From Minisyncoccota bacterium (GTDB lineage Bacteria > Patescibacteriota > Minisyncoccia > Phycocordibacterales > PALSA-1337): a stretch of DNA of 53,958 nucleotides. The translations under genes were made by a program, and so were the position numbers. Each line of letters starts with the position of its first letter. The stretch's first letter is position 1. Below, piece by piece: positions 8,437 to 53,958 of this stretch. The stretch covers positions 1 through 53,958 of the forward strand of contig DATJGJ010000014.1 in the NCBI GenBank assembly GCA_035495115.1, read 5' to 3'. The notes beneath the pieces were generated by a model. It was not told where the DNA came from. It saw only the letters and a list, made by a program, of their open reading frames with translations, and ran no database searches.

Positions 8437-11400
8437 TTACTTTTGATCCCAAGAACCACCACCTTGTGCCGTATCTGAAGTGTCAGTGTTTGAACTGTGC
8501 CCGTGCGTCCTTAGGTAAACACGGAGATACCAACCGACACCACCCCCAATGATGACTACAAGCAGAACAAGCACGATGTTCAACGGATATTTATATTTTT
8601 CGGTAAATGGGACGACAGGACCGGCTGGCGCAACATATGCAACATTTACAGTCTCGGCACCAACAGTTGCTGTTGGCAGATTATTTTCATCAATATACGA
8701 GGTTAACTGCGCAGTATCATACTCGGGCTGAAGCGCGGTTGGGTTTCCATAATAAAGCACGTATGACTGGCCAGGATCTACTTGAAATATAACTGCATAT
8801 AGTGGAACAGAAACACTCACTCGATTGGTGACTGAGAGAGGCGGATTATCATCGTTGACGATCGACAGTCGCACATAACGCGCTCGAACGGGCTGATAAG
8901 ATACATAGTTTGATGCACCATTGAATATTGACGTCGAGATGCGAGAAATAGATCCTTCTCCATTACTTCTCCAGTTAACTGCATCGTCAGAAATAGCTAC
9001 CACGACACGACGGATATAATTTGCGCTCTCAGGATTTACGTTGAGGTCTACCCTATCACTCAGGCGTCCGACTGAACCGAGATCAACGGTAACATCAGTT
9101 GTTTTCTTTTTTGGATCATTGAACACAGTCGCGTTGAGCGACATTGTATCTCTACCGACTATTGTCTCTATATCGCGCTGCGCAGTCATTCCAGTAACTG
9201 TCACAGGATCTTTATCACCTTCACTGATCACTATTTTGAGATATCGCGCTGCAGTAGCAGGGATAGATACGGAATACTTTCCAGACGTAGCACCGGTCGT
9301 TGGATCAGTTACTCGAAAAATAAATCCGTTCGAAGTAACAAGCGACCATGCGTTGCTCTCAGTTGGTAATTGCGAGTCAGAAGAATACACGTGCACCTGG
9401 CTTCTGAAATCAGTAGAAGTGCGAGCAACGCTAATATTCAGACTAGAATAAACTGTCGCCTTCGTACCCATGTCAGCCACAAAAACCGTTGACCCACTCA
9501 ATGTAGACGTGAGCCCTATCAGACGAGCGTTGAGCGTTGGGCCTGACGAAGTCTGATTTTGACTGAGCACATATGGAACCTCATTGCCTTGTTTGTCGAT
9601 AATACGCACATCAGCGAATTGACCAGTTCTCGACGTCCATGAAATATCTGTTGGCAGTACCGCCTTCACAAAACCAGAGGCTGACGGAACAGTGAGCGAA
9701 CGTGCATATTGCCAATCACTCAACGTGAATGCTGCTTCAGCGATGTTGGCGTGAGATATGCCAGCAAGAGCAGCTGTGCCTATGCCGATAAATAATGCAA
9801 GCGATATAATCTGCTTCAAACGGTCTTTGTACTTTATGTAACCGAATGAAACAGCAAGAGCGATAACACCGAAAGCTATGAACGAGATAATGCGATAGAG
9901 CTCGCCGAGATTCCACACATCAACGAGCACCTTGAACGCTGTGACAAAGAAGAGGACAAGGCCAAAACGGCGGAGACTTGCCATTCTACGGGCAAATCCA
10001 ATCGCTGTGAGTACTGCCGCATATAGTGTCCAAAGAATAGAGACGAGCGTATTTGATACATTACGATTACTGGTAATCGTTTCATTATATGTCTTGTTAA
10101 TTTGGTCTACTTGCGCACGAGTATCATACCCATTTGAATATTGTCGAGAATTGGCAACTGTCGCCTGATAATTCTGCGTAAGCTTGTTTGACGCTGCCGC
10201 ATAGTATGAGGTGATCTGCATCGTAAGTGCCCAGAGCGACAACACATTCGCAATAATGAAGAATGCGACGATGCCTCGTTGGCGAATCTCAGCGGTAATG
10301 CTGCCATAACGATTGTATATATGCGCGATGAGATATGCTGCTACGACTGCAAGAGCCAGTACGATGAATGGTGCATTGAAGAATGGCGTGAATTCCAAAC
10401 CATGGTTTGTATTCAAGTACCAATATAGATAGTCGAACAAACCGAGACAATACACAATAAGTCCCATGACCTGAAAACCACGGTTACTGATCACTGAAGC
10501 TATAGCATAGAGCACACAGGCTTCGATGAACCATGCAACAGCTATCCAAGGGCCGGAGAACTGAAGTGGTACGGCGATTGATAAAAATACGACTGCTAAA
10601 CCAGGCAGAAATATATTGAGCGCTGTATCTTGAGGATTTGCCTTATTGACCATGAATACGACGATCATATAGATAGCAGCTACGAGGACAGAGGCGAAGC
10701 CGAGAACATTGTGATACTGAGGATTGAGTAAAACGTATACTATCGTTGCAAATGAAAATGCATTGACACCCATGAGCAGGTAGTCAGCTTCATCCGCTTT
10801 GACGCCAGCAGTGATACCCCGAGCAACCTGAGCGACCAAGAAGATAAGGAATGTCACGATACAGAAAAGTAATACGGGCGGCATGTCAGTCGAGACGTAG
10901 AACGCGCCGAACCACATCATGAAATTAATCGCGGTTCCGACAAATGAAGCCAGATTGAGGCGAGGCCACTTTTTGAAGAAAGAAATGCCGAGAACGCCAA
11001 CGTTGATGAGTGTCATGTACATGAATAGGGTCATCATTGCATTGTCGTGTGAGCCCACCAGTGTTGGCGTAGCAAATGCACCTATCACTGAGACGAGTGC
11101 GAGAGTTTGAGTTGCATTGGTGATACTGATCGCAAAAGCGAGCAATGTTACCAAGAACATAAAGATACCTGTTGTCCCTGAATCAATAAGGTTGTAGAAC
11201 GAATGAGCGGAAAATACTGAGAGGTACAATATTGCGATACCTCCACCCATAATCAAATCAGAATACTGGAGATATTTTGAACGTATATACTGACCGACAC
11301 CGAGAAAGCCCAGACCAGCAATAATACCGATCATCACTCGACCCGCTGGACCGATCCAGTTGTTATCAAACGCATATTTCAAAAAGAACGCGACGCCGAT

Positions 11401-16038: not shown

Positions 16039-16224
16039 GCCAGACTTGGATTCGACCGCGCCTCTCACTTCGCTACCCGCTCCGTTCGGGCTGGTCACCG
16101 GCTCGCACCCGTAGGCGTGCTCGCCTACGGACTCCGCTACGCTCCGTGTGCTCCGCCGTTCGAATCCTGCGCCTGTCATCACTCACTCACTTCGTTCGTT
16201 ACGTGCTGCCAGACTTGGATTCGA
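16039..16224 (-). mobile_element. Miniature palindromic element downstream of tRNA-Gln, bracketed by a 17-bp direct repeat of the tRNA 3' end
   Basis: gccagacttggattcga at 16039-16055 and 16208-16224; internal IR ggattcgacc...gttcgaatcc and hairpin ccgtaggcg-tgct-cgcctacgg. Confidence 0.6.
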
Positions 16225-17917: not shown

Positions 17918-19618
17918 TTATTTACCCTTTCTCTTCTTGGCCGCTTTCATAAACTCCGTAAAGAGCGGATGCGGTGCGAGCGGTCGTGCCAAGAACTCAG
18001 GGTGGAACTGTGTGCCAAGGAAAAACGGATGCACCGAACGAGGGAGCTCGGCGATCTCCATGAGAGTACCGTCAGGCGACTTGCCCGAGAACACCAGACC
18101 AGCATCTTCTATCTGCTGTATATACTCTGGATTGACCTCATAGCGGTGACGATGGCGCTCCTCGATCTTGTCGGTACCATATGCTTCATGGGCCACACTA
18201 CCCTTCATGAGCTTTGCAGGATACCTACCGAGACGCATCGAGCCTCCATAGTCACCTTCAGCAATTTTTTTCTTTTGGTCAGGCATGATGTCGATGATGA
18301 CATGCTTTGCTTTTGGATCGATCTCCGCAGTATGTGCCCCCGCGAGACCGATGACATTGCGAGCGTACTCTATCGTCAACAACTGCATGCCGTAGCAGAG
18401 GCCAAAGTATGGAATCTTATTTTCACGACAATATCTGATAACATTGAGCTTGCCTTCGATACCGCTCTCGCCGAAACCACCTGGCACGATGATACCATCG
18501 AACTGATCGAGCGCAGAATAGTCAGGCTTCTTGCCTTCAAAATCGCGCGAATTGACCGTATGGATGACCGGCTTAACCTTATTGGCATATCCTGAGAACT
18601 TTATCGCCTCCAAGACAGAGATATAGGCGTCAGTCAGCACAAAGTCTCCTGTATTAAAATATTTACCTACAATGGCGATATTGAGCGTATGTTCATTGAA
18701 ATTCTTTATGCCTTTAGCGAACCTCTTCCACTCATCGAATGTTGGTCCCATCTTCCTTTCAGGCAGACTGAGCGAGTTCATGAGGATCTCGGCGAGCTGA
18801 TCTTTCTCAAAGTTGACCGGCACATCGTATATGCTCTCTATGTCTGGCGCTGATATGACATGCTCAGTTGGTATATTACACGAGATTGCTATCTTCTCTT
18901 TGCGACGATGATCGAGCGGTGTTTCAGCACGAGCAATGATAAAATCTGCATTGACGCCATATGAAGCCAGCTGACGCGCAGCATTTTGCGTTGGACGCGA
19001 CTTCATCTCACCGAGCTTACCTGGTGTCGGCAAATATGAAACCATGATAAACACCACATCTGCAGGGCGTTTCATCTTGAGCATACGAGCTGCTTCGATG
19101 AACATGACGTTCTGATAGTCGCCGATCGTGCCGCCGATCTCGACGATAGATATATCTGACTCATTGAGCTTCGCAGCATGCTCAAAACGATGAACGATCT
19201 CATCACGGATATGTGGTATTGCCTCGACGCACTTCCCGCCATATTTGAGCGCGCGCTCTTTTTCAATAACTTCCCTGTAGATCATCCCTGATGTCATATA
19301 ATCATATTCGCTCGCGTCCCGATTGAGGAAGCGTTCGTAGTTTCCCATGTCCTGATCAGTCTCAAGCCCGTTATTTAAAACAAAAACCTCACCGTGCTCG
19401 GTGGGGTTCATAGTGCCTGCGTCGACGTTGAGATAAGGATCGACTTTGACGAGATTGATGCGGAAGCCTTTGGCAGAGAGGACGGTGCCGATCGAAGAGG
19501 TGGCGATGCCCTTGCCTACTCCCGACATCACGCCGCCGATGACGAAGATGTACTTGTGGGGAGATTTGGGGATCTTGCTCGCAATCTTGTCTGCGACCTT
19601 GGCCGGCTTCTTGTTCAT
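17918..19618 (-). CDS. pyrG: CTP synthase
   Basis: KYIFVIGGVMSGVGKG, DPYLNVDAGTMNPTEHGEVFV, PGGFG, GLCYGMQ, ERHRHRYE, QFHPE; real start ATG 19618. Confidence 0.98.
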   Translation of the reverse strand: MNKKPAKVADKIASKIPKSPHKYIFVIGGVMSGVGKGIATSSIGTVLSAKGFRINLVKVDPYLNVDAGTMNPTEHGEVFVLNNGLETDQDMGNYERFLNRDASEYDYMTSGMIYREVIEKERALKYGGKCVEAIPHIRDEIVHRFEHAAKLNESDISIVEIGGTIGDYQNVMFIEAARMLKMKRPADVVFIMVSYLPTPGKLGEMKSRPTQNAARQLASYGVNADFIIARAETPLDHRRKEKIAISCNIPTEHVISAPDIESIYDVPVNFEKDQLAEILMNSLSLPERKMGPTFDEWKRFAKGIKNFNEHTLNIAIVGKYFNTGDFVLTDAYISVLEAIKFSGYANKVKPVIHTVNSRDFEGKKPDYSALDQFDGIIVPGGFGESGIEGKLNVIRYCRENKIPYFGLCYGMQLLTIEYARNVIGLAGAHTAEIDPKAKHVIIDIMPDQKKKIAEGDYGGSMRLGRYPAKLMKGSVAHEAYGTDKIEERHRHRYEVNPEYIQQIEDAGLVFSGKSPDGTLMEIAELPRSVHPFFLGTQFHPEFLARPLAPHPLFTEFMKAAKKRKGK

Positions 19619-19786
19619 GGAGCTAAGTATATAATATTCAGTAACCGGGAGACAATGACAAAATATATTACAAATTAAAATTACTAAATATACAAATAGT
19701 CTCAGTGGCGTGCGTATATGTGCAGCGGTTTTGGTCAAGGTGGAACATAAAACATTCGGGCCTGTATGCCTCCAACAAAATCGAGA

Positions 19787-19843
19787 TGACGAACTTTTTC
19801 CGTCAGTCCTTATTTTAAGCCAGTGACGAAATTTCTTCGTCAC
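19787..19843 (-). repeat. Dispersed twin-hairpin repeat, copy A (copy B at 42567-42622, opposite strand)
   Basis: Reverse complement aligns to 42567-42622 with 6 mismatches and 1 gap over 57 nt. Confidence 0.85.
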
Positions 19844-19889
19844 CCTATTTTTACGGACTTGTGTCTTGTATTAGTCGCGAAAAAGAAAT

Positions 19890-41637: not shown

Positions 41638-41731
41638 GTCCCTAGTGTACATTGAAAATACTAAACTGAAAAGTTGTTAACGCTGGATAATCCACTAAAA
41701 TATCTATGCGCCCTAGGGGCATTTTATTTTA

Positions 41732-42526
41732 ATGAACATACTCAGGATTATGTATGAAACGATTCTCGAAGCGCTTTTTCCTTTATCTGAGACTGAAAAG
41801 GAGCTTTTTTCATGTCGGCCGTGTGATATTTCAAGTATTTTACCGCCATCACCGAATTATTCGGGCCTTGCAGTACCATTACCTGAAGGCACGTCGCTAT
41901 TTGCCTATAAAGACACGAGAGTTGAGCAGCTTATCTGGAACATCAAGTACAAGAAGTCCAGGCAGGCTGTTGAGATTGGTGGATATGAGTTGTTTGGAAA
42001 ATTATGTGAAATAAATATGGTGGCACCTGCTTCAGATTTTCAGGACACGCCGTCAAAGCCTGCTGGCTTTGCGGCTGGTTCTCAGTCGCCTACGCTCCTT
42101 CCGAAACGTCCTTCAAATTCCGAAGCAGGTGCCACTCGACTACTTATAATTCCCATTCCAATTACAAAGCTACGCCGACGCGAACGTGGGTATAATCAGT
42201 GCGAATTGTTGGTCGATGAGGTGGAACGATTGGATAAAGAAGCTAAATTTATTTCTGAAAATAACTTACTCATTCGTATGCATCATGATGGGCGGCATAC
42301 ATTAAAAGGACGCACGGACAGAGTCGAGAGCGCCAAAGGGATATTTGGAGTAGATGAAAGTACACTGAAAAAACTGACAGAAAAATATGGCGCAGATAAG
42401 ATTAAAAACTGTAAGGTAGTGATCATCGACGATGTTATTACAACCGGCAGCACCATGCGAGAAGCTATCGACACCATGAAAAAATCCGGATTCACGAATG
42501 TGTCCGGACTTTCAGTGGCACATTAA
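41732..42526 (+). CDS. comF: ComF family phosphoribosyltransferase-like competence protein with a ~39-aa insertion
   Basis: LIWNIKYK, IPIP...RRRERGYNQ, IDDVITTGST. Confidence 0.88.
   Translation: MNILRIMYETILEALFPLSETEKELFSCRPCDISSILPPSPNYSGLAVPLPEGTSLFAYKDTRVEQLIWNIKYKKSRQAVEIGGYELFGKLCEINMVAPASDFQDTPSKPAGFAAGSQSPTLLPKRPSNSEAGATRLLIIPIPITKLRRRERGYNQCELLVDEVERLDKEAKFISENNLLIRMHHDGRHTLKGRTDRVESAKGIFGVDESTLKKLTEKYGADKIKNCKVVIIDDVITTGSTMREAIDTMKKSGFTNVSGLSVAH
42020..42135. mobile_element. In-frame palindromic insertion in comF
   Basis: Perfect 14-bp terminal IR gtggcacctgcttc/gaagcaggtgccac; internal hairpin caaagcc-tgct-ggctttg; reading frame stays open. Confidence 0.75.
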
Positions 42527-42566
42527 ATGGGCACGGTTAGCTAGTTGTCTGTTTTCTAAAATGAGA

Positions 42567-42622
42567 GTGACGAAAAATTTCGTCAGTGGCTCAAAATATG
42601 GACTGACGAAGAAAGTTCTTCA
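42567..42622 (+). repeat. Dispersed twin-hairpin repeat, copy B
   Basis: gtgacgaaaaatttcgtca...ctgacgaagaaagttcttca; homologous to the reverse complement of 19787-19843. Confidence 0.85.
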
Positions 42623-44682: not shown

Positions 44683-45012
44683 ATGGCACCATCCCCTACA
44701 CATAAAGCAGGAACGAGAGATATGCATTCAACGAAAACCTGCCCTATCGCAGAGGTAGCAGAGCTTTTGTCGGATACATGGACGATGCTCATCATCCGTG
44801 ATCTTCTCAAAGGGCCAATGCGCTTTTGCGAGCTCGAGCGATCACTCGAAGGAGTCAGCACCCGCACACTCACTCTCAAGCTCAAGAAGCTGATGACAGA
44901 AAAAGTAATATCGAAAGAAGAGGAGTCCCACTACTACTCAATCACCAAACAAGGCATGCACCTCGGTGCTGTTATCGATGCGATGAGAGATTACGGTAAA
45001 GCCTATCTATAA
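44683..45012 (+). CDS. HxlR/DUF24 family winged-helix regulator
   Basis: CPIAEVAELLSDTWTMLIIRDL, GVSTRTL..KLK; start 44683 chosen from TAGCCT-6-ATG (44677 also possible). Confidence 0.9.
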   Translation: MAPSPTHKAGTRDMHSTKTCPIAEVAELLSDTWTMLIIRDLLKGPMRFCELERSLEGVSTRTLTLKLKKLMTEKVISKEEESHYYSITKQGMHLGAVIDAMRDYGKAYL

Positions 45013-45073
45013 AAAATCAAAACACTACAATAGCACTATGGCTACATTGTAATATCTGATACGACAGTGCAAA

Positions 45074-47533
45074 ATGTTCATTAATAACATGAGCTTAAAA
45101 CGCATATTCAGTTCGCCATGGACCATAAGTGCCCTAAGTGGCATCGCTCTTATCCTAATTAATTGGTCAGATTTCTATTTGTATTGGAGCTCGCCATTTA
45201 TCCAGGGATGGGATGGTCAGGGACATGCATCTATTGGTGAATACTATTCTGATCACATTTTTCCAAGCACCTGGGGCTGGGTCAGCCAGTGGTATGCAGG
45301 TATGCCATTCCCACAATTCTACCCCCCGTTATTTTATTTTGTCATGGCAATATTCCATCATATTTTGCCATTTATATCTTATATCACCACCTTCAAAGCA
45401 TTTGTCATCATTTTACAATTATCACTTCCAGCTGCGCTCACATTCTTCGTAGCTCACAGAAAAAAAAGTGTTTCAGCACTATGGTTTACTGGAATCTTTT
45501 CTGTGCTTCTCACATCTTCTCACTATGATATTTTTGGCGGGTATGGCATGAATACCATGTCTACTTTTCACACCGGAATGATCGCTCAATTACTCGGTTT
45601 TGTATTTCTCATCGCCTGGTTGCATTATTTTCTGCAAATCGAACAGAACATCCGTGCCCGTTACCTCAGTATCTTATTTCTTTTTCTTACTTTTCTTGCC
45701 AATGCACATAACGACATAGTTACCTTCCTCATATTTGTCACAATATTCTTACACTCTTTTGTGCCTCTCATAGTGAAGATGATAAAAAAAGAAGAGTGGT
45801 ACAAAAAGGAACACTGGTTGCATGCACTTAAACTGTTTCTTTTATATTTTCTGTGCGGAGCCATCCCCCTTATCGCTACCTCATTTTGGACGGTACCTCT
45901 TTTATACACTTATACATATTTCGTAACAGGGTCATTGTTTAGTGGACCCAGCGTTTCAAGCCTGCTCATGTCAGTCTGGCTACTGCCTTTCATAGCAATG
46001 ATTGTTTTTTTTGTTCACAAAAAAATAAAGAACAGAGATGCTCTTATACTCATGACATCCATACTCCTTGTAGTAGCACTTACCTATCTACCAAATATTT
46101 ATCATTTAGCTATACCGACACACATCAACCGTTGGTTCGGTGTGGTGATATTCATGTTACCGATCGTATGTGGCCTCATATATGATGACTTCCTCCTTAT
46201 AATCGATAGGTTCATAAAGCACCGTATCCTCATATTTATACTTGGAATCATCATAATATTTGTAGGAACCGGAAGCTATCGAATTGAGAATTCAAATGGT
46301 TTTTATTTTAATTACGATAAAGATCATTTTGATCAAATCGTGTCATACATACAGTCAAATAAAAAAGATCTCGGCATCACCGCAGTAGAAAGTGTTGAAG
46401 TTACGGATACGCCAAAAATGTTCATATATGATTCGATATTTGGTCAGTACGGCGATGGGGCGGCCACGTTTGTATTGAGAGAATCATCGATAAACTCTCT
46501 TTTTATGACACCTATCAGAAACTCTATCTCGCTTGACCATGAGAGTTGGGGGCTTGTGAGCTTTCTTGTCTTCAATGATCATTTCTTGAAACAAAATATC
46601 ACAGATGATCTCGATCGTGCCGAAAAGGCAGGGATACAATCTTTCTTTGTCAGATCAAAGTACACTAAAGATCTGCTCAATTCAGATCAACGAATATCAT
46701 TGAAAGCGACATTTGGAAACTGGCAACTATTTGCTTTCAAGACAAAAACCGTTCGCGCAGAAATATTTTCATATAAACCTATCGTATTTTATGGCAATCT
46801 GACATTCAAAGACAGATGGAATACAGACTACGATTGGAATCGCTTACAGGAAGAGCTTTTATTCTGGAATAAAAAAAAGATTATCCTCTCATATGCTTCG
46901 AATCAACTGCTTGATACGAGTACTGATCTTTATTTAGCTTCAACAACAGTCATAACTTCATATCACTATATAGATGAAATTACTGCCGCAAGAAAACTAA
47001 TATCTTATTCTAAAACAAATCACTTGATACTTGTTGCCGAGCGCGACCCTCTTTTCTTCAAGATAAAAGACATATATCTATCGAGCAGTACAACTAAAAA
47101 ATACAACATAACACTTGTCGATCATTTGAGTAACGGTATCATTGATGATGATCCTCTAGAAAATCAGCTTGGCACAGTATTCGCAAATATGGAACATAAC
47201 GATCTCTATCCGTACACTACGGATATCCACATCAAAGATACACATATAAGCGACTCTCGAATACAGGTAGAGTTAAGCGGCACCTCAACTGTCCCGCTAC
47301 CGATACTGGTAAAAACTAGTTATTTCCCAGCATGGCAACGTGCTGATAATGAACCCATATACCTGGGTTCGTCAGCATTCATGCTTACATATGCCACGAG
47401 CAGCTTTGAGATAAACTTCACTACACCGACTTATGTGAAAATTGGCTGGTATATTTCTTTTATAGTCTTAATTGGAACAGTTATTTTATACTATTTTGAT
47501 AGACGCCAGAAGAGAGATTGGTTCGTATCTTGA
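45074..47533 (+). CDS. Large polytopic membrane protein, GT-C fold (PTPS-related family), probable glycosyltransferase
   Basis: WDGQGH..W.WV..WYAGMPFPQFYPPL, about 12 TM segments, extracellular domain, SYFPAW near the C-terminal TM. Confidence 0.75.
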   Translation: MFINNMSLKRIFSSPWTISALSGIALILINWSDFYLYWSSPFIQGWDGQGHASIGEYYSDHIFPSTWGWVSQWYAGMPFPQFYPPLFYFVMAIFHHILPFISYITTFKAFVIILQLSLPAALTFFVAHRKKSVSALWFTGIFSVLLTSSHYDIFGGYGMNTMSTFHTGMIAQLLGFVFLIAWLHYFLQIEQNIRARYLSILFLFLTFLANAHNDIVTFLIFVTIFLHSFVPLIVKMIKKEEWYKKEHWLHALKLFLLYFLCGAIPLIATSFWTVPLLYTYTYFVTGSLFSGPSVSSLLMSVWLLPFIAMIVFFVHKKIKNRDALILMTSILLVVALTYLPNIYHLAIPTHINRWFGVVIFMLPIVCGLIYDDFLLIIDRFIKHRILIFILGIIIIFVGTGSYRIENSNGFYFNYDKDHFDQIVSYIQSNKKDLGITAVESVEVTDTPKMFIYDSIFGQYGDGAATFVLRESSINSLFMTPIRNSISLDHESWGLVSFLVFNDHFLKQNITDDLDRAEKAGIQSFFVRSKYTKDLLNSDQRISLKATFGNWQLFAFKTKTVRAEIFSYKPIVFYGNLTFKDRWNTDYDWNRLQEELLFWNKKKIILSYASNQLLDTSTDLYLASTTVITSYHYIDEITAARKLISYSKTNHLILVAERDPLFFKIKDIYLSSSTTKKYNITLVDHLSNGIIDDDPLENQLGTVFANMEHNDLYPYTTDIHIKDTHISDSRIQVELSGTSTVPLPILVKTSYFPAWQRADNEPIYLGSSAFMLTYATSSFEINFTTPTYVKIGWYISFIVLIGTVILYYFDRRQKRDWFVS

Positions 47534-48215
47534 GCAAATCTTTGAACATCTTTTGTGATGAACGAAAAGGTTTGAGATTTCCATTATTATTGTGTGACCA
47601 GGTAACACCTATCTCGGCGATACTCAGTTTTTTTGCTTGAGCAATGGCGAGCACTTCAGTATCAAAAGCTAGCCCAGATATAGTCATAAGAGGAAAAATC
47701 TCTTCAATCGCCCTTTTGTTGAACATCTTTAGTCCACACTGGCTGTCGTTAATGGTTTGCTTCAGCAGCATTTTACGCAGAAAATTATATGTTTTACTCA
47801 TGAATCGTCGGATAAGTGGAAACGGCACAGGTACATTGCTTCCTGACACATATCGAGATGCAATCACGATATCGCTGGTTTCAATATGTGTGTACAGAGA
47901 CAAGATCTCATCTAAACTCGCAGAAAAATCAACATCAGTGAATACTGTATGTGGCGCCTTACTTGCACTCATTCCAGTTTTAACCGCAAAGCCTTTACCT
48001 TTATTTTCTTTGTATGAAATAAGTACTATGCGAGAGTCTGGATGTAGTTCATTATAGACATGTATTTGTGAGGCGGTATCATCAGATGACCCGTCGTCGA
48101 CAAAGATAACTTCCTGCATAAGTTCAGGATACCTTTCTACAAAATCTGTCACTGTTTCCAATGCGCGACCAATACGCCGACTCTCATTGAAGACTGGCAC
48201 CACGATCGAGATCAT
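47481..48215 (-). CDS. GT2 polyprenyl-phosphate glycosyltransferase (Dol-P-Glc synthase/GtrB-like)
   Basis: SIVVPVFNE, DDGSSD, NKGKG.AV, FTDVD, DSQCGLK, FDTEVL. Confidence 0.9.
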   Translation of the reverse strand: MISIVVPVFNESRRIGRALETVTDFVERYPELMQEVIFVDDGSSDDTASQIHVYNELHPDSRIVLISYKENKGKGFAVKTGMSASKAPHTVFTDVDFSASLDEILSLYTHIETSDIVIASRYVSGSNVPVPFPLIRRFMSKTYNFLRKMLLKQTINDSQCGLKMFNKRAIEEIFPLMTISGLAFDTEVLAIAQAKKLSIAEIGVTWSHNNNGNLKPFRSSQKMFKDLLKIRTNLSSGVYQNSIK

Positions 48216-48220
48216 AAATA

Positions 48221-48736
48221 TTAAGGGTTACTCACTGTACCGCCACCGATAATGTTATTAACGCTTATTGAAGGTGAAAATGTATTTGATCCTATAAGAA
48301 TACCTTCAGTGTAATTGGGCACTGAAGCACTGCTCTTTGATTCCGAAACGTACATGACTATACCCGCTTTAGCATTTCCTGACGTAACGTCAGTTTGATA
48401 ATAATAAACGTACTGACCTTGGTTTAAAGGATCTTGAAGTACTTTGCTGATATACCCACCTGTTACAAGAGCATTGAGTGCCGAAGTAAAGTTTGCGCCT
48501 GTACAAGTTGTTGTTGGGCATGGTGGGTAACCGTTATGATCTAGATCATACAGAGCAAGAGCATTTCTGAGTTGAACCATATCTGAAGTACGATTTGCGT
48601 CTCTTCCCTTTGCACGAGCTATATTGGTAGAAGTAAGGATAACAGAAGAAAGCAGTGATATGATGGCTATAACAACAAGCAACTCGATGAGGGTAAAGCC
48701 TTTTTGATGTTGAATATGTGATGGAGTATGTTTCAT
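48221..48736 (-). CDS. Type IV pilin (orphan, outside the main pil locus)
   Basis: QKGFTLIELLVVIAIISLLSS, RDANRTSD, QDP; Ser/Thr/Asn-rich. Confidence 0.9.
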   Translation of the reverse strand: MKHTPSHIQHQKGFTLIELLVVIAIISLLSSVILTSTNIARAKGRDANRTSDMVQLRNALALYDLDHNGYPPCPTTTCTGANFTSALNALVTGGYISKVLQDPLNQGQYVYYYQTDVTSGNAKAGIVMYVSESKSSASVPNYTEGILIGSNTFSPSISVNNIIGGGTVSNP

Positions 48737-48740
48737 ATGT

Positions 48741-49007
48741 TTACTGGATGCTTTTAGACTGTATGAACTCTTCGGGCGTTATCAACCCATTTTGATAATT
48801 AAATGAGTGGTACAAAATAACTGCTCCCACAATAAAAACCCCAATAAGTATCAACAAAAAAACATTTGCCTGATTCTCATTCTTTACGATATTTTTATTA
48901 ATTAAAAAACTAACGATGCTTGGTTTCTTTGCACTTGCTTGAAAGCGCGCATACAAAAGATGCCCCTGTGCTCCCTGATTGTCTCCATCAAATTCAATGT
49001 TACTCAT
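48741..49007 (-). CDS. Small membrane protein
   Basis: VSFLINKNIVKNENQAN followed by one TM; 4 nt from the pilin start, same strand. Confidence 0.7.
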   Translation of the reverse strand: MSNIEFDGDNQGAQGHLLYARFQASAKKPSIVSFLINKNIVKNENQANVFLLILIGVFIVGAVILYHSFNYQNGLITPEEFIQSKSIQ

Positions 49008-49113
49008 GAGAATAAAGTTAAGAGATAAATAATATATTGTTTTTTATTATATGCAATAAATTCACATAATCATACTGAACTATGGGGATATCACAACATG
49101 ATATAATTGCCAC

Positions 49114-49545
49114 ATGCATACCCCGTTCCAAGCAGGATTTCTGAAAATGAGTAAATTTGGCACTAGCGGAATCATTGCCACAGGTACAAATATAAGTGTT
49201 TTGTACTTACTGACATCTAAAATCGGATTCTGGTATATAACTTCTACCATATTTGCGTTCATCACTGCATTTATAGTTAGTTTTACGCTTCAAAAATACT
49301 GGGTGTTTGGGAATAGGGATAACGCAGTAATATATAAACATGCGAGTTCATTCTTTATTGTTGCTATAATAAATCTCATTCTCAACACTTTTCTTATGTA
49401 TATCTGTGTTGAATATATTCGACTGGAATATATCGCATCCCAAGTGATCGTGAGCGGTATGATCGCCTACGAAAGCTACTTTCTCTACAGAAAAATATTT
49501 GCAATGCAATATAAAAAATTACTTATAAAAAACCACCTCACATAA
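49114..49545 (+). CDS. GtrA family flippase
   Basis: KFGTSGIIAT, SFTLQKYWVF, four TM segments. Confidence 0.88.
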   Translation: MHTPFQAGFLKMSKFGTSGIIATGTNISVLYLLTSKIGFWYITSTIFAFITAFIVSFTLQKYWVFGNRDNAVIYKHASSFFIVAIINLILNTFLMYICVEYIRLEYIASQVIVSGMIAYESYFLYRKIFAMQYKKLLIKNHLT

Positions 49546-49556
49546 GGTGATTTTTT
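49527..49556. terminator. Bidirectional terminator
   Basis: aaaaaaccacct/aggtgatttttt between convergent genes. Confidence 0.6.
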
Positions 49557-49578
49557 GATTTAGCTAAGGCTTATTATC

Positions 49579-49899
49579 TTACTGAGCTGGCGTGTGCGGA
49601 TGATTGCCATGATGATCCTCGTCGTGATTCGTGTGACCGTGGCGCTTCTTGTGCCACTCTTTGACGAAGAAGATAATATAGACTGCTTCGAGGATACCGG
49701 CGGTGTTCAAGATAAGGAGAGCGATGAACCACCACTTCTCATCGCGCTTTGCGGCATGCCAGAGCGCATAACCCTTGAGGGCAATGACTAGGGCAAAGAA
49801 GACAGCGGCGAGAATGCCGAGCAAAATCATGCCTGGACCAAAGCCGTAGCCCCACGGAGAGCCATACATATGACCGTAACCAAATGTTGAATACATCAT
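49579..49899 (-). CDS. DUF5652-like membrane protein with a His-rich tail
   Basis: KGYALWHAAKRDEKWWFIALLILNTAGILE. Confidence 0.8.
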   Translation of the reverse strand: MMYSTFGYGHMYGSPWGYGFGPGMILLGILAAVFFALVIALKGYALWHAAKRDEKWWFIALLILNTAGILEAVYIIFFVKEWHKKRHGHTNHDEDHHGNHPHTPAQ

Positions 49900-50014
49900 A
49901 ATAATATTGAGATTAGCTGATATGTCCCTATTCTACCACATATTATTTAGTCAAATTACAGGTTATAATTGATATATAGGGTATTTAAAATCAGTAATTT
50001 ATAACAATACTATT

Positions 50015-50925: not shown

Positions 50926-50952
50926 AATAGAAAACCTTTTCTCATCCCTCAC

Positions 50953-51009
50953 GTGACGTGCGCAGGCACGTCACTCGCTTCCTTGCTCACTCACTACGTT
51001 CGCTCGCTG
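50953..51009 (-). repeat. Palindromic/GNA-motif element just downstream of tRNA-Ser(GCT)
   Basis: gtgacgtgc-gcag-gcacgtcac hairpin; ctcactcactacgttcg matches 16182-16198 at 16/17. Confidence 0.7.
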
Positions 51010-52672: not shown

Positions 52673-52680
52673 TTAAGCCC

Positions 52681-53958
52681 ATGCCCGTCATCACTCCTGA
52701 AATCACTGTCTCTGAATATTTCCGCCTGACGCCCATCCAAAAAGACGCCTTGAAAAAAATAGGCATCACCACGCTCCGCGACCTCCTATATCATTTCCCC
52801 GTCCGCTATGGCGACACAGCTGAAGCAAAAAATATCGAGACGCTCGGTAAGGGCGACACTGCAGTCATATTCGGCAAGATCACCAATCTCAAAGCGAGTA
52901 AAGGATTCAAGACGAAGATGACCATGGCGACAGCTACTGTCGAAGATGAAACTGGCAAGATCCAGTGCGTCTGGTTCAATCAACCCTATCTCGCAAAGAT
53001 GACACCAGAAGGTGCGATGGTTCGCATAGAGGGAAAGGTTTCGGAAAGAAGAAAAAAGGAGACGAACAAAGTACCCCCAGAAACTTCTTTTTCTGAGCGT
53101 AGCGGTAGCGAAGCGAGTTACGCAGCGAATGAAAAAGAAGTTTCTGTGGGTGCTGCCCGTCTCTATTTCTCCAACCCTAAAATCGAAGTAGTCGACAAGC
53201 TCCCTATCGGCGTTGGAGACTCCCTCTTCGGCGATACTGGCGAAGCTCATACCCTTTACCCCGTTTACCCCGAGTCGCGAGGCATTACGTCGAGCTGGAT
53301 GTACCACGCCATCCAAAAGCTTTTCAAAAGCGGTCTCCTCGACAACATGATCGACGTACTCCCAGGACACCTTCTCGTCAAATATCATCTGCCGAGCCTC
53401 AAGACCGCGCTCATCTGGATGCACACTCCCCTCAAACGCGAAGATGCGCTCTCTGCTCGCAAGCGCTTTTCATTTGAAGAGATATTTATCATTCAGCTCG
53501 GCAAACAGCAAGCTCGCAGAGAATATGAGAAACATCCGGCCTTCGTCATAGAAGCGGACGATGTCCATGTCCGTGAATTCATTAAGCGTTTTCCCTTCAC
53601 CGCCACTGAAGCACAAACGAAGGCAGTCGAGACTATCCTTGGTGATATGCGCCGTGAATATGCCATGTCGCGTCTCCTCGAAGGCGACGTAGGCTCGGGC
53701 AAGACAGCGGTGGCAGCTTCTGCAGCATATGCCATCATCACCTCGCGTCCACCGAAAGTCCCTCGTCTCGCTGGTTCGAACCCAAATCCACTTGCCAAAG
53801 GATCTGCGACAGCTGGCCAAGGTAACCTCCAGGTAGCATACATGTGCCCAACAGAAATCTTGGCGACGCAGCATTTCGAATCATTCATCCAATACTTTTC
53901 GTATATGCCGATACAGATCGGCCTCATCACTGGTTCTGGTTGCCGCAAATTTCCTTCA
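52681..53958 (+). CDS. recG: ATP-dependent DNA helicase RecG, partial (runs off the window end; absent from the ORF track)
   Basis: My translation from ATG 52681: LLYHFPVRY, WFNQPYL, YPVYP, FEEIF, T.AQ, RLLEGDVGSGKT, QVAYMCPTEILATQH. Confidence 0.95.
   Translation, partial: MPVITPEITVSEYFRLTPIQKDALKKIGITTLRDLLYHFPVRYGDTAEAKNIETLGKGDTAVIFGKITNLKASKGFKTKMTMATATVEDETGKIQCVWFNQPYLAKMTPEGAMVRIEGKVSERRKKETNKVPPETSFSERSGSEASYAANEKEVSVGAARLYFSNPKIEVVDKLPIGVGDSLFGDTGEAHTLYPVYPESRGITSSWMYHAIQKLFKSGLLDNMIDVLPGHLLVKYHLPSLKTALIWMHTPLKREDALSARKRFSFEEIFIIQLGKQQARREYEKHPAFVIEADDVHVREFIKRFPFTATEAQTKAVETILGDMRREYAMSRLLEGDVGSGKTAVAASAAYAIITSRPPKVPRLAGSNPNPLAKGSATAGQGNLQVAYMCPTEILATQHFESFIQYFSYMPIQIGLITGSGCRKFPS
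53078..53146. mobile_element. In-frame 69-bp palindromic insertion in recG
   Basis: Perfect 16-bp IR cagaaacttctttttc/gaaaaagaagtttctg; the loop holds GCGTAGC and GCGAAGC; exactly 23 codons. Confidence 0.8.

What the first reader, a model, noticed from the sequence alone, without database searches (positions are those of the whole stretch)
42020..42135. 116-bp palindromic element read through in frame inside comF
Seen: 14-bp perfect terminal IR, imperfect inner stem and internal hairpin caaagcc-tgct-ggctttg followed by ctacgctcc. The tRNA-Gln element has the same order of parts (hairpin with TGCT loop, then ctacgctcc). It encodes a Pro/Ser/Ala-rich ~39-aa insert (VAPASDFQDTPSKPAGFAAGSQSPTLLPKRPSNSEAGAT) just before the IPIP motif. 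Both clear in-frame cases in this window are in DNA-handling genes, which may be chance.
Basis: partly seen in the sequence, partly recalled or inferred. Interest (0 to 1): 0.68.

Follow-up and report, generated by a model that had tools for sequence, protein, structure and literature searches.

The report
Palindromic insert translated inside comF
A 116-base GC-rich DNA palindrome sits in frame inside the comF gene of an uncultured Patescibacteria bacterium; it belongs to an apparently undescribed family of small selfish DNA elements that lodge in loops of essential proteins, much as Rickettsia palindromic elements do.

Summary
Window 42020-42135 is a strong palindrome (14-bp perfect ends, fold z about -7) inside a ComF-like ORF, and it encodes a 39-aa Pro/Ser/Ala-rich loop. 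It is not a private quirk of this gene. The same roughly 95-nt branched-hairpin core occurs at this comF site in 16 of 120 ComF homologues, in either orientation. It also occurs in frame in secA (two sites), dnaE, tgt and a SAM-methyltransferase, with a divergent subtype in recG, and in intergenic DNA of other Patescibacteria.

Junction and loop bases are conserved. All helices covary (97.5% paired, almost no G-U), and the outer 15-25 bp arms differ in every copy. Cores cluster by genome, not by host gene. One comF relative lacks exactly 141 nt (47 codons).

Best reading: a non-autonomous, DNA-level palindromic element, tolerated as a disordered surface loop, invertible in place and lost by deletion. 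How it moves and how its arms arise are unresolved; part of the arms is copied from host flank. The proposed kinship with the tRNA-Gln flank is not demonstrated. I classify it as a new variant of a known kind (RPE or intragenic-REP-like).

The parts
41732..42526 (+). ComF-like host gene (264 aa), in the conserved order pilM - comF - tyrS
   Evidence: ORF list. Pfam PF00156 and TIGR00201 match aa 138-263 only. 562 homologues, mostly Patescibacteria ComF. The same synteny is seen in L081-L085.
42020..42135 (.). Whole palindromic element (116 nt). As translated it is aa 97-135, 42020-42136, 39 codons.
   Evidence: Inverted repeat and fold statistics. Absent from the nearest insert-free orthologues P0004 and P0006. 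AlphaFold2 predicts coil with pLDDT about 56-66 between helix 77-96 and strand 137-141.
42020..42040 (.). Left outer arm. It is specific to this copy: 14 bp perfect, 21 nt at 90%.
   Evidence: Arm sequences differ in every copy of the family.
42115..42135 (.). Right outer arm, complementary to 42020-42040
42030..42124 (+). Conserved core unit as matched by the family covariance model
   Evidence: Model R1, 102.6 bits, E = 8.7e-30, the only significant hit in the window.
42042..42046 (+). Closing stem, 5' side (AGGAC; family consensus GGGAC). Pairs with 42108-42112 (GTCCT).
   Evidence: Alignment and consensus fold.
42049..42075 (+). Side-branch hairpin 1: invariant GCCG/CGGC base, a 7-bp stem that differs between copies (here CAAAGCC/GGCTTTG) and a TGCT loop
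   Evidence: All 7 variable stem pairs show changes on both sides across the 22 copies, and the helix is 99.6% paired.
42076..42083 (+). Conserved junction strand TGGTTCTC. GGTTC pairs with GAAAC of 42103-42107; the G/A at the first pair covaries with C/T.
   Evidence: Pair 48-131 is G-C in 18 copies and A-U in 4. Invariant columns.
42084..42099 (+). Apical hairpin 2. It is eroded here (AGTCGC-CTAC-GCTCCT); the family consensus is GGCCGC-CTWC-GCGGCC.
   Evidence: Other copies carry nested extra hairpins in this loop (L083, L101, L103).
42100..42112 (+). Conserved junction strand TCCGAAAC plus the 3' side of the closing stem (GTCCT)

Best explanation
The segment is one copy of a family of small (about 95-140 bp), GC-rich, non-autonomous palindromic DNA elements of Patescibacteria.

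Structure. Each copy has a conserved core: a closing stem (GGGAC/GTCCC), a side-branch hairpin with a TGCT loop, two conserved junction strands (TGGTTCTC and TCCGAAAC) and an apical hairpin. The core is flanked by 15-25 bp outer arms. The arms are self-complementary but differ in every copy.

How it persists. The element survives in gene-dense genomes where it falls in a tolerant surface loop and keeps the reading frame. It is then transcribed and translated as a disordered Pro/Ser/Ala/Gly-rich peptide (...DTPS..AAGS..PKRPS...). In ComF that peptide lies between the N-terminal helical part and the first strand of the phosphoribosyltransferase domain.

What is shown:
- family membership;
- dispersal in unrelated genes and in intergenic DNA;
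- covarying helices without G-U pairs, which indicates symmetry kept at the DNA level;
- both orientations at the same site in orthologues;
- presence or absence as a unit of whole codons;
- cores that resemble each other by genome rather than by host gene.

What is inferred:
- The core is a folded-DNA recognition site for a trans-acting enzyme, or is copied between sites by recombination.
- The arms are built or extended by inverted copying of adjacent host sequence, and kept perfect by template switching or fold-back synthesis at the hairpin.
- Recombination between the arms inverts the element in place.
- Slippage across the hairpin base deletes it.

The window's copy is inherited, not new. 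It shares a related hairpin-1 stem and related arms with its closest relative L081. Its apical hairpin is eroded. If inverted it would introduce two stop codons, so it is effectively locked in its present orientation.
For: Family and dispersal
- The exact pattern GACACGCCGT-N18-CGGCTRGTTCTC occurs in the window and in comF of L001, L004, L081-L085.
- It also occurs in 15 further copies on 14 metagenome loci of 41-56% GC.
- Hosts: comF, secA site 1 (L106, L110, L113), secA site 2 (L106), dnaE (L100), a SAM-methyltransferase (L094, L102) and tgt (L109), plus intergenic sites (L087, L088, L091, L097, L101).
- The covariance model adds a divergent subtype at one recG site (L003, L004, L083) and a subtype 3' of tRNA-Ser genes.

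Structure maintained at the DNA level
- 97.5% of pair cells are standard pairs, against 81% in shuffles and 33-46% for slid partners. 105 cells changed on both sides, against 33 expected. Only 3 of 570 cells are G-U.
- Outer arms: 445 Watson-Crick pairs, 5 G-T, 14 A-C. In mRNA orientation the count is G-T 8 against A-C 8.

A discrete insert
- The closest DnaE orthologues (82-86% identical) read FTVxKxxx-YRIRFGL, without the 126 nt. None of 120 DnaE homologues carries the element.
- L117 comF lacks exactly 141 nt (47 codons) relative to L083.

Orientation
- The reverse complement sits at the same site in comF (L004, P0032, P0043, P0076), secA (L113 against L110, with identical 67/67 cores) and the methyltransferase (L094 against L102).

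Turnover or concerted evolution
- Copies in different genes on one contig are 66/67 identical (L089 comF against L100 dnaE; L106a against L106b). comF copies of different genomes are 45-61/67 identical.

Frame
- Genic copies always use the DTPS frame or its in-place inversion partner (EGRFG..DGVSR), which is the only open minus frame.

Arms partly derived from the host
- In tgt the downstream arm ends in the native P-A-L-F codons (ALFGI aligns to Z. mobilis TGT). The upstream arm is their 10/11 inverted copy.
- comF arms of L083, L004 and L089 run into the native VVV(I/L)P codons.

Tolerated loop
- AlphaFold2 gives mean pLDDT 88 for ComF; the insert is coil with pLDDT about 56-66.

No partner gene
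- No transposase lies next to intergenic copies or among the window ORFs scanned.
Against: - No second copy exists in this 54-kb window, so mobility is shown only by comparison across genomes.
- No terminal repeats are shared between copies. No clear target duplication is seen, only a 4-nt CCAC at the L083/L117 gap, which could equally be the microhomology used for a deletion. No associated enzyme was found, so the mechanism of movement is unknown.
- The data do not separate true transposition from ancient insertions whose cores are homogenised by gene conversion.
- Strong conservation of unpaired junction bases could also mean a cellular function.
- There are no transcript or protein data for the insert. 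Reads laid on the region showed neither excision nor inversion variants, but only assembled contigs were available.
- In dnaE both arms appear to be extra relative to orthologues, which does not fit a simple 'one arm is native' rule.
Confidence: 0.75

Rival explanations
1. The core is a functional structured RNA embedded in mRNAs. It could be a cis-regulatory element, an RNase III or other processing site, a small ribozyme, or a small RNA. On this reading the conserved junction and loop bases are kept for that function, and coding through it is secondary.
For: - The three-way architecture is very stable, with strictly conserved unpaired bases and covarying helices.
- The RNA fold has z -7.7.
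- It has persisted for a long time at the comF site, across proteins only about 55% identical.
Against: - No Rfam family matches at E <= 10.
- G-U pairs are almost absent (3 of 570 cells). Arm mismatches show no G-U over A-C bias in mRNA orientation (8 against 8), unlike RNA helices under selection.
- The element occurs in either orientation relative to host transcription at the same site, even with identical cores (L110 against L113).
- It occurs in unrelated genes and in intergenic DNA, with no common context.
Confidence: 0.1
2. The palindrome is transcribed but not translated. It would be removed from the mRNA, or bypassed by the ribosome, like the byp elements of Magnusiomyces mitochondria or the T4 gene 60 gap, so that ComF is made without the 39 aa.
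For: - GC-rich palindromic inserts in coding genes that are bypassed are known (cited in PMC6649704).
- A hairpin of -56 kcal/mol inside a coding sequence is an obstacle to ribosomes.
Against: - Every genic copy is free of stop codons in the host frame and always in the same element frame, although other frames exist.
- The two gaps that could be measured are whole numbers of codons: 141 nt and 126 nt.
- Decayed copies remain in frame as ordinary peptide (P0018, P0055, P0022).
- None of this would be required if the segment were skipped.
Confidence: 0.04
3. The segment is a native, protein-level linker of ComF that is conserved because the peptide matters. On this reading the palindromy is a by-product.
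For: A recognisable DTPS..AAGS..PKRPS peptide is present in 13 of 120 ComF homologues at the same position.
Against: - Orthologues carry the reverse complement, which encodes an unrelated acidic peptide (GRFG..EGEGEPAA..DGVSR).
- Amino-acid changes follow base-pair covariation.
- Many close orthologues lack the segment entirely.
- The same DNA is in secA, dnaE, tgt, a methyltransferase and intergenic DNA.
- The structure model predicts the insert as low-confidence coil.
Confidence: 0.03
4. There is no mobile unit. Each palindrome would have arisen locally by template-switch or fold-back errors of replication, as proposed for coding palindromes in nematomorph mitochondria, and the similarity between copies would be convergent.
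For: - Arms are copy-specific and partly copied from adjacent host sequence.
- Active maintenance of perfect arms is a known phenomenon (PMC6649704).
Against: - A 67-nt core that is 66/67 identical in comF and dnaE of one contig, and at least 63/67 identical between secA, tgt and methyltransferase copies on different contigs, cannot be convergent.
- Covariance-model scores are 76-113 bits.
Confidence: 0.05

Closest known systems
Rickettsia palindromic elements (RPE-1 to RPE-10)
   Same: Palindromic repeats of about 100-150 bp in a reduced, gene-dense genome. They are inserted in frame in many unrelated housekeeping genes and read through as an extra peptide compatible with the fold. They have no obvious transposase, terminal repeats or target duplication, and they decay with time (PMC10969869; PMC3733652).
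   Different: - Different phylum, and no sequence relation was tested or evident.
- RPE copies are alike along their length, whereas here only the core is shared and the outer arms are unique to each copy.
- Here both orientations occur at one site, and all helices covary while junction bases are fixed.
Intragenic REP elements (GTAG- and CGTC-tagged palindromic repeats; Di Nocera et al. 2013)
   Same: Small GC-rich hairpins with variable stems and conserved short tags. Some lie inside genes and encode 20-80 aa, often in replication and repair genes (uvrA/B, recB, dnaE, ligase) and tRNA-modifying genes. Hairpin 1 of this element is always preceded by CGTC.
   Different: - REPs are 20-40 bp single hairpins, typically in high copy number and mostly intergenic.
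- This element is a branched unit of about 95 nt, in low copy number (about one per 50-400 kb in the DNA seen).
- The CGTC here is partly base-paired, not an unpaired tag.
- No RAYT gene was seen.
Coding palindromes of nematomorph mitochondrial genes
   Same: Long, near-perfect inverted repeats inside functional protein genes. Their arms are unique to each site and appear to be actively kept identical. Template switching was proposed, and the repeats behave like parasitic DNA (PMC6649704).
   Different: Those palindromes have no shared core and both arms encode conserved protein. Here a conserved foreign core sits at the centre and the product is a disordered insert.
Classical bacterial MITEs (Correia, ERIC, RUP and others)
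   Same: Short non-autonomous repeats with inverted ends. Occasional in-frame intragenic copies are known.
   Different: MITE families share their terminal inverted repeats, make target-site duplications and usually have a parent insertion sequence. None of these was found here.
Integron attC sites and IS200/IS605 or REP-RAYT substrates (folded single-stranded DNA sites)
   Same: They are recognised by structure plus a few conserved unpaired bases, while stem sequences vary freely. This is the same conservation pattern as in this core.
   Different: This is a resemblance of pattern only. No integrase or HUH transposase was found, and no reaction is known. In attC the conserved bases are at the ends, whereas here they are in the centre.

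Membership tests
Rickettsia palindromic elements (RPE) | Palindromic repeat of about 100-150 bp present in several copies per genome | tested here: met
   116-141 nt; fold z about -7. Two copies lie on one 856-kb contig, two lie in one secA gene, and five contigs of one sample each carry one.
Rickettsia palindromic elements (RPE) | Inserted in frame in unrelated protein genes and encoding a conserved peptide | tested here: met
   Found in comF, secA (two sites), dnaE, tgt, a methyltransferase and recG, always in one frame pair.
Rickettsia palindromic elements (RPE) | Sequence similarity to RPE consensus sequences; occurrence in Rickettsiales | not testable with these tools
   No RPE library was available. 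The host is Patescibacteria, and Rfam has no match.
Rickettsia palindromic elements (RPE) | Copies alike over their whole length | tested here: not met
   Outer arms are unique to each copy, with no shared 12-mers beyond chance.
MITE | Terminal inverted repeats shared by all family members | tested here: not met
   Arms differ between copies whose cores are 66/67 identical.
MITE | Direct target-site duplication | tested here: inconclusive
   No common direct repeat is seen at the arm ends (by inspection). A 4-nt CCAC lies at both ends of the 141-nt L083/L117 gap; it may be a duplication or a deletion microhomology.
MITE | Related autonomous element with a transposase | tested here: not met
   No transposase domain was found in genes beside five intergenic copies, nor in 38 window ORFs scanned. 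Whole genomes were not available.
REP / RAYT system | 20-40 bp hairpin with an unpaired GTAG or CGTC tag at one end | tested here: inconclusive
   CGTC precedes hairpin 1 in nearly all copies, but its CG is paired with the CGGC base, and the unit is a branched structure of about 95 nt.
REP / RAYT system | RAYT (Y1 transposase) gene in the genome | not testable with these tools
   Only 54 kb of this genome is available. None was seen among the ORFs scanned.
Known RNA families (Rfam 15), including small ribozymes | Covariance-model match | tested here: not met
   No match at E <= 10 in 41700-42600. Only tRNAs match in the whole window.
Translational bypass elements (byp, T4 gene 60) | Insert not readable in frame (stop after the take-off codon, length not a multiple of three) | tested here: not met
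   The frame is open through all genic copies. The measured gaps are 126 and 141 nt.

The most novel reading that the evidence does not exclude
The core may be a new kind of mobile DNA that builds its own palindrome. After it enters a site, adjacent host sequence would be copied in inverted orientation to form copy-specific arms (an inverted target duplication), and these would be kept perfect by hairpin-templated synthesis. The arms would then allow the core to flip in place. Essential proteins (ComF, SecA, RecG, Tgt, DnaE) would carry one of two alternative loops, a basic Pro/Ser-rich one or an acidic Gly/Glu-rich one. The element may have settled on the only frame pair that stays open in both orientations. 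This would be a mode of insertion and of protein-loop variation not described for bacterial elements.
Probability: 0.2. Interest if true: 0.8.

Novelty: new variant of a known kind. Interest (0 to 1): 0.62.

Why it matters
- **Where selfish DNA hides.** Patescibacteria have tiny, gene-dense genomes with few recognised mobile elements. This family shows that selfish DNA persists there by sitting inside the loops of essential proteins, as in Rickettsia. It may be one source of the many unexplained inserts in their proteins.
- **Annotation.** Such inserts break domain matches: the comF model covers only aa 138-263 here. They also break assemblies, since contigs of another run end at the element.
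- **Mechanism.** The fixed junction bases, freely covarying helices, copy-specific arms and in-place inversion point to a DNA-structure-based mechanism. If worked out, it would bear on how palindromes arise and are maintained in genomes.

Tried and rejected
- **Rfam search.** Region at E <= 10 and whole window: nothing but tRNAs.
- **Second copy in the window.** Sought by repeat finding and by an unfiltered covariance-model search: none.
- **tRNA-Gln flank.** Tested as a relative by the model, by fold statistics and by alignment with the tRNA-Ser-linked subtype. No convincing relation.
- **Reads and contigs of four public runs.** No joints or variants, because only contigs were available. One run holds another copy with its own arms.
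- **Pre-existing palindrome at the target.** Flanks beyond the arms show no excess complementarity (mean z 0.5).
- **Donor of the arms.** Arm 12-mers match nothing but chance hits in all fetched DNA.
- **Viral contigs.** The exact pattern gives 0 hits. A looser pattern gives one chance hit that the model rejects.
- **False positives in the metagenome scan.** 17 of the 31 loci were an unrelated conserved gene of 63-71% GC bacteria that shares the 22 specified bases by chance.
- **Ideas considered and dropped.** Hammerhead, twister and other ribozymes (no core motifs, no Rfam hit); intein or intron (too small, in frame); DNA uptake sequence (GCCGTCTG appears only in some copies).

Full report
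**1.

Window 42020-42135 reads GTGGCACCTGCTTC...GAAGCAGGTGCCAC. The 14-bp ends are perfectly complementary and extend to 21 nt at 90%. The 14-mer occurs nowhere else in the window. Inside lie the hairpin CAAAGCC-TGCT-GGCTTTG (42054-42071) and CTACGCTCC (42090-42098). The segment folds far better than shuffles: DNA z -6.98, RNA z -7.73, 0 of 200 shuffles as good.

It lies in ORF 41732-42526 (+), 264 aa. This is a ComF-type phosphoribosyltransferase whose family models match only aa 138-263. The gene sits between pilM and tyrS, an order kept in relatives. The homologues are almost all from Patescibacteria (Parcubacteria, Taylorbacteria) metagenome bins. The element encodes aa 97-135.

**2. It is an insert, and it is DNA that is conserved, not protein**

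In an alignment of 45 ComF homologues, the closest insert-free relatives run straight from the helix to the IIPxPIT strand (P0004 ...EYINKQ-PTDMACLILPMPIT; also P0006). Others carry a similar peptide, DTPS..AAGS..PKRPS.

- The DNA of six such orthologues shows the same nucleotide core: GGGACACGCCGT, a 7-bp stem, TGCT, the return stem, CGGCTGGTTCTC, a second hairpin, then TCCGAAAYGTCCC.
- In these copies the stems differ but always pair. Long outer stems have unrelated sequences.
- In L004 the whole element is the reverse complement at the same comF site and encodes GRFGGREGGREPAATSAEVDGVSR instead.
- Of the 120 best ComF homologues, 13 carry the forward peptide and 3 the reverse one. Others carry decayed or partly deleted versions.

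**3. It is a dispersed family**

One scan of metagenome contigs used the 22 conserved bases and returned 31 loci.

- 17 are an unrelated gene of high-GC bacteria.
- 14 loci (15 copies; 41-56% GC) are true copies with the full architecture, each with its own near-perfect arms of 15-25 bp.

Their hosts are:

| Host | Loci and orientation |
|---|---|
| secA, site 1 | L106 and L110 forward, L113 reversed |
| secA, site 2 | L106, in the same gene as site 1 |
| dnaE | L100 |
| SAM-methyltransferase | L102 forward, L094 reversed |
| tgt | L109 reversed |
| a response-regulator gene | L103 |
| intergenic DNA next to ordinary housekeeping genes | L087, L088, L091, L097, L101 |

L089 (comF) and L100 (dnaE) lie on the same 856,588-bp contig.

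A covariance model built from 22 copies behaves as follows:

- It scores the training copies at 76-113 bits.
- It finds only the comF copy in the window (102.6 bits, E = 9e-30; next best E = 0.83).
- It picks up more distant relatives: a subtype at one site of recG in L003, L004 and L083; a subtype just 3' of tRNA-Ser genes in L014, L017 and L019; and a long-hairpin variant in L101.

A public landfill metagenome that holds this comF also holds a further copy with different palindromic flanks.

**4. Anatomy and the level at which it is maintained**

Counting pairs on the 22-copy alignment:

- 97.5% of cells are standard pairs, against 81% in shuffles and 33-46% when partners are slid.
- 16 of 26 pairs, and 105 cells, show changes on both sides, against 33 cells expected.
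- G-U pairs are almost absent: 3 cells of 570.
- The junction strands also pair (GGTTC with GAAAC), with a G-C to A-U switch.

The element is therefore a long rod with one side branch.

The outer arms show 445 Watson-Crick pairs, 5 G-T, 14 A-C and 28 other. In mRNA orientation the count is G-T 8 against A-C 8. This is the signature of symmetry kept in DNA, where both strands matter or one arm is copied from the other. It is not the signature of an RNA helix under selection. Rfam has no match.

**5. Frames**

The forward strand is open in all three frames, yet every genic forward copy is read in the DTPS frame. This holds at five independent sites. On the reverse strand only one frame is open in consensus copies, and all reversed genic copies use it.

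These two frames are exchanged by in-place inversion of a symmetric segment. So the frame pair observed is the one that tolerates flipping. This last step is inference. The window's copy would acquire two stops if flipped.

**6. Gain, loss and turnover**

- **dnaE.** The closest orthologues (82-86% identical in the region) read FTVxKxxx(x)YRIRFGL. L100 has 42 extra codons, arms included, and none of 120 homologues has the element.
- **comF.** L117 (P0046) lacks exactly 141 nt (47 codons) relative to L083 (10289-10429). The sequence next to the site is about 94% identical (80% over the whole gene). A 4-nt CCAC lies at both gap ends. L117 retains a 24-nt quasi-palindrome, TCACAACCACCGCGGTGATCGTGA, that corresponds to the outermost arms.
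- Because most of that clade carries the element, I read L117 as a deletion across the hairpin base. L002 looks like an internal-deletion remnant.
- **Core identities.**
  - Copies in different genes on the same contig: 66/67.
  - Copies on five contigs of one sample: 61-65/67.
  - Copies in secA, tgt and the methyltransferase on different contigs: 63-65/67.
  - comF copies of different genomes: 45-61/67.
- Cores therefore follow genomes and lineages, not host genes. Either they move, or they are homogenised between sites.
- **The window's copy.** Its hairpin-1 stem and arms are related to those of L081, the closest relative (ComF 73% identical), so the window's copy is inherited.

**7. Where the arms come from**

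- Arms end sharply. Flanks beyond them are not complementary, and arm sequences match nothing else in the DNA fetched.
- In tgt the downstream arm ends in CCC GCC TTG TT, the native Pro-Ala-Leu-Phe of the conserved ALFGI motif (aligned to Zymomonas TGT). The upstream arm begins with its 10/11 inverted copy, AACAAGGTGGG.
- In comF of L083, L004 and L089 the downstream arm runs into the native Val-Val-Val-Ile/Leu-Pro codons, and the upstream arm encodes Thr-Thr-Thr as their inverse.
- At least the outer part of the arms is therefore an inverted copy of host flank.
- In dnaE both arms look extra, so the rule is not simple.
- Nested extra hairpins in the apical loop of L083, L101 and L103 show that hairpin loops are themselves insertion points.
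- Template switching or fold-back synthesis at hairpins has been proposed for perfect coding palindromes elsewhere (PMC6649704). It is the most economical explanation of arm growth and perfection, but it is not shown here.

**8. Consequence for the protein**

AlphaFold2 on the ComF alignment gives a confident fold (mean pLDDT 88, pTM 0.83). Residues 97-136 are coil at pLDDT about 56-66, between helix 77-96 and strand 137-141. This is consistent with a tolerated surface loop. Translation itself is inferred from frame conservation, not observed.

**9. Comparison with known systems**

- The closest parallels are Rickettsia palindromic elements and intragenic REPs, which also decorate replication and repair proteins.
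- This family differs in three ways: phylum; a fixed branched core with all helices free to vary; and copy-specific arms with both orientations at one site.
- It fails the defining tests of MITEs: no shared terminal repeats, no clear target duplication, no parent element.
- Four full-text searches found no description of such an element in Patescibacteria.

**10. Verdict**

The finding is real. The element is a new variant of the known kind 'palindromic selfish DNA read through in protein genes'. Its mechanism is unresolved and potentially interesting.

Noticed in passing
window 53070-53154 (inside recG, which starts near 52680 and runs off the window end): This is a second in-frame palindrome: 24-nt arms at 92% complementarity, DNA fold z -6.4. 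It lies at exactly the recG site where L003, L004 and L083 carry a divergent subtype of the core. Here the centre is only 38 nt (TGAGCGTAGCGGTAGCGAAGCGAGTTACGCAGCGAATG). The downstream arm is homologous to those of L004 and L083.
   Followed up: partly
window 16040-16055 and 16209-16224; GC-rich stretch 16056-16204: The 3' part of tRNA-Gln (ccagacttggattcga) is repeated about 170 nt away. About 150 nt of GC-rich DNA lies between the repeats and contains a 9-bp hairpin with a TGCT loop. Its reverse complement shares GAGCGTAGCGG and GCGG(G)TAGCGAAG with the centre of the recG palindrome. It may be an insertion into or beside the tRNA gene.
   Followed up: partly
L014 12555-12642, L017 16788-16886, L019 15191-15284; window 50930-51008: A subtype related to the core (21-32 bits) lies about 50 nt 3' of tRNA-Ser genes in three genomes. 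In the window, the 3' flanks of tRNA-Ser and tRNA-Gln share a motif (ctcactcactacgttcgctcg against cactcactcacttcgttcgtt).
   Followed up: partly
window 42575-42622 and 19787-19834: A 48-nt inverted pair, 88% alike, made of TGACGAA...TTCGTCA hairpins. One copy lies in the convergent comF-tyrS spacer, so it is probably a repeated bidirectional terminator.
   Followed up: no
proteins P0121, P0139 and others, at the DnaE loop between FTV and IRFGL: The same DnaE loop that holds the element in L100 carries other long inserts in other Patescibacteria, some encoding ..RLRGNDK.. or ..RLRGDDK.. peptides. This suggests that other repeat families use the same tolerant loop. P0130 looks like a decayed copy (GGLQDTQSSPPLP).
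   Followed up: no
L008 comF linker (about 10001-10660): A comF without the core has a perfect 10-bp palindrome, TGGCAAGGCC-A-GGCCTTGCCA, at the insertion position. It may be arms left behind after loss of a core.
   Followed up: no
window 45001-50000: A low-GC stretch (36-39%, against about 46% elsewhere). It holds an 819-aa ORF without Pfam matches, a family-2 glycosyltransferase, a GtrA-like protein and a pilin-like protein, and may be an acquired island.
   Followed up: no
L086, L090, L092, L093 and 13 more loci of 63-71% GC: A conserved protein gene of high-GC bacteria contains GACACGCCGT-N19-CGGCTGGTTCTC by coincidence. This is a warning for pattern-only searches for this element.
   Followed up: yes
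window 17921-19843 (-): The CTP synthase ORF has about 96 residues ahead of the first Pfam-matched residue. The upstream part overlaps the repeated hairpin region at 19787-19852, so the true start is probably further downstream.
   Followed up: no
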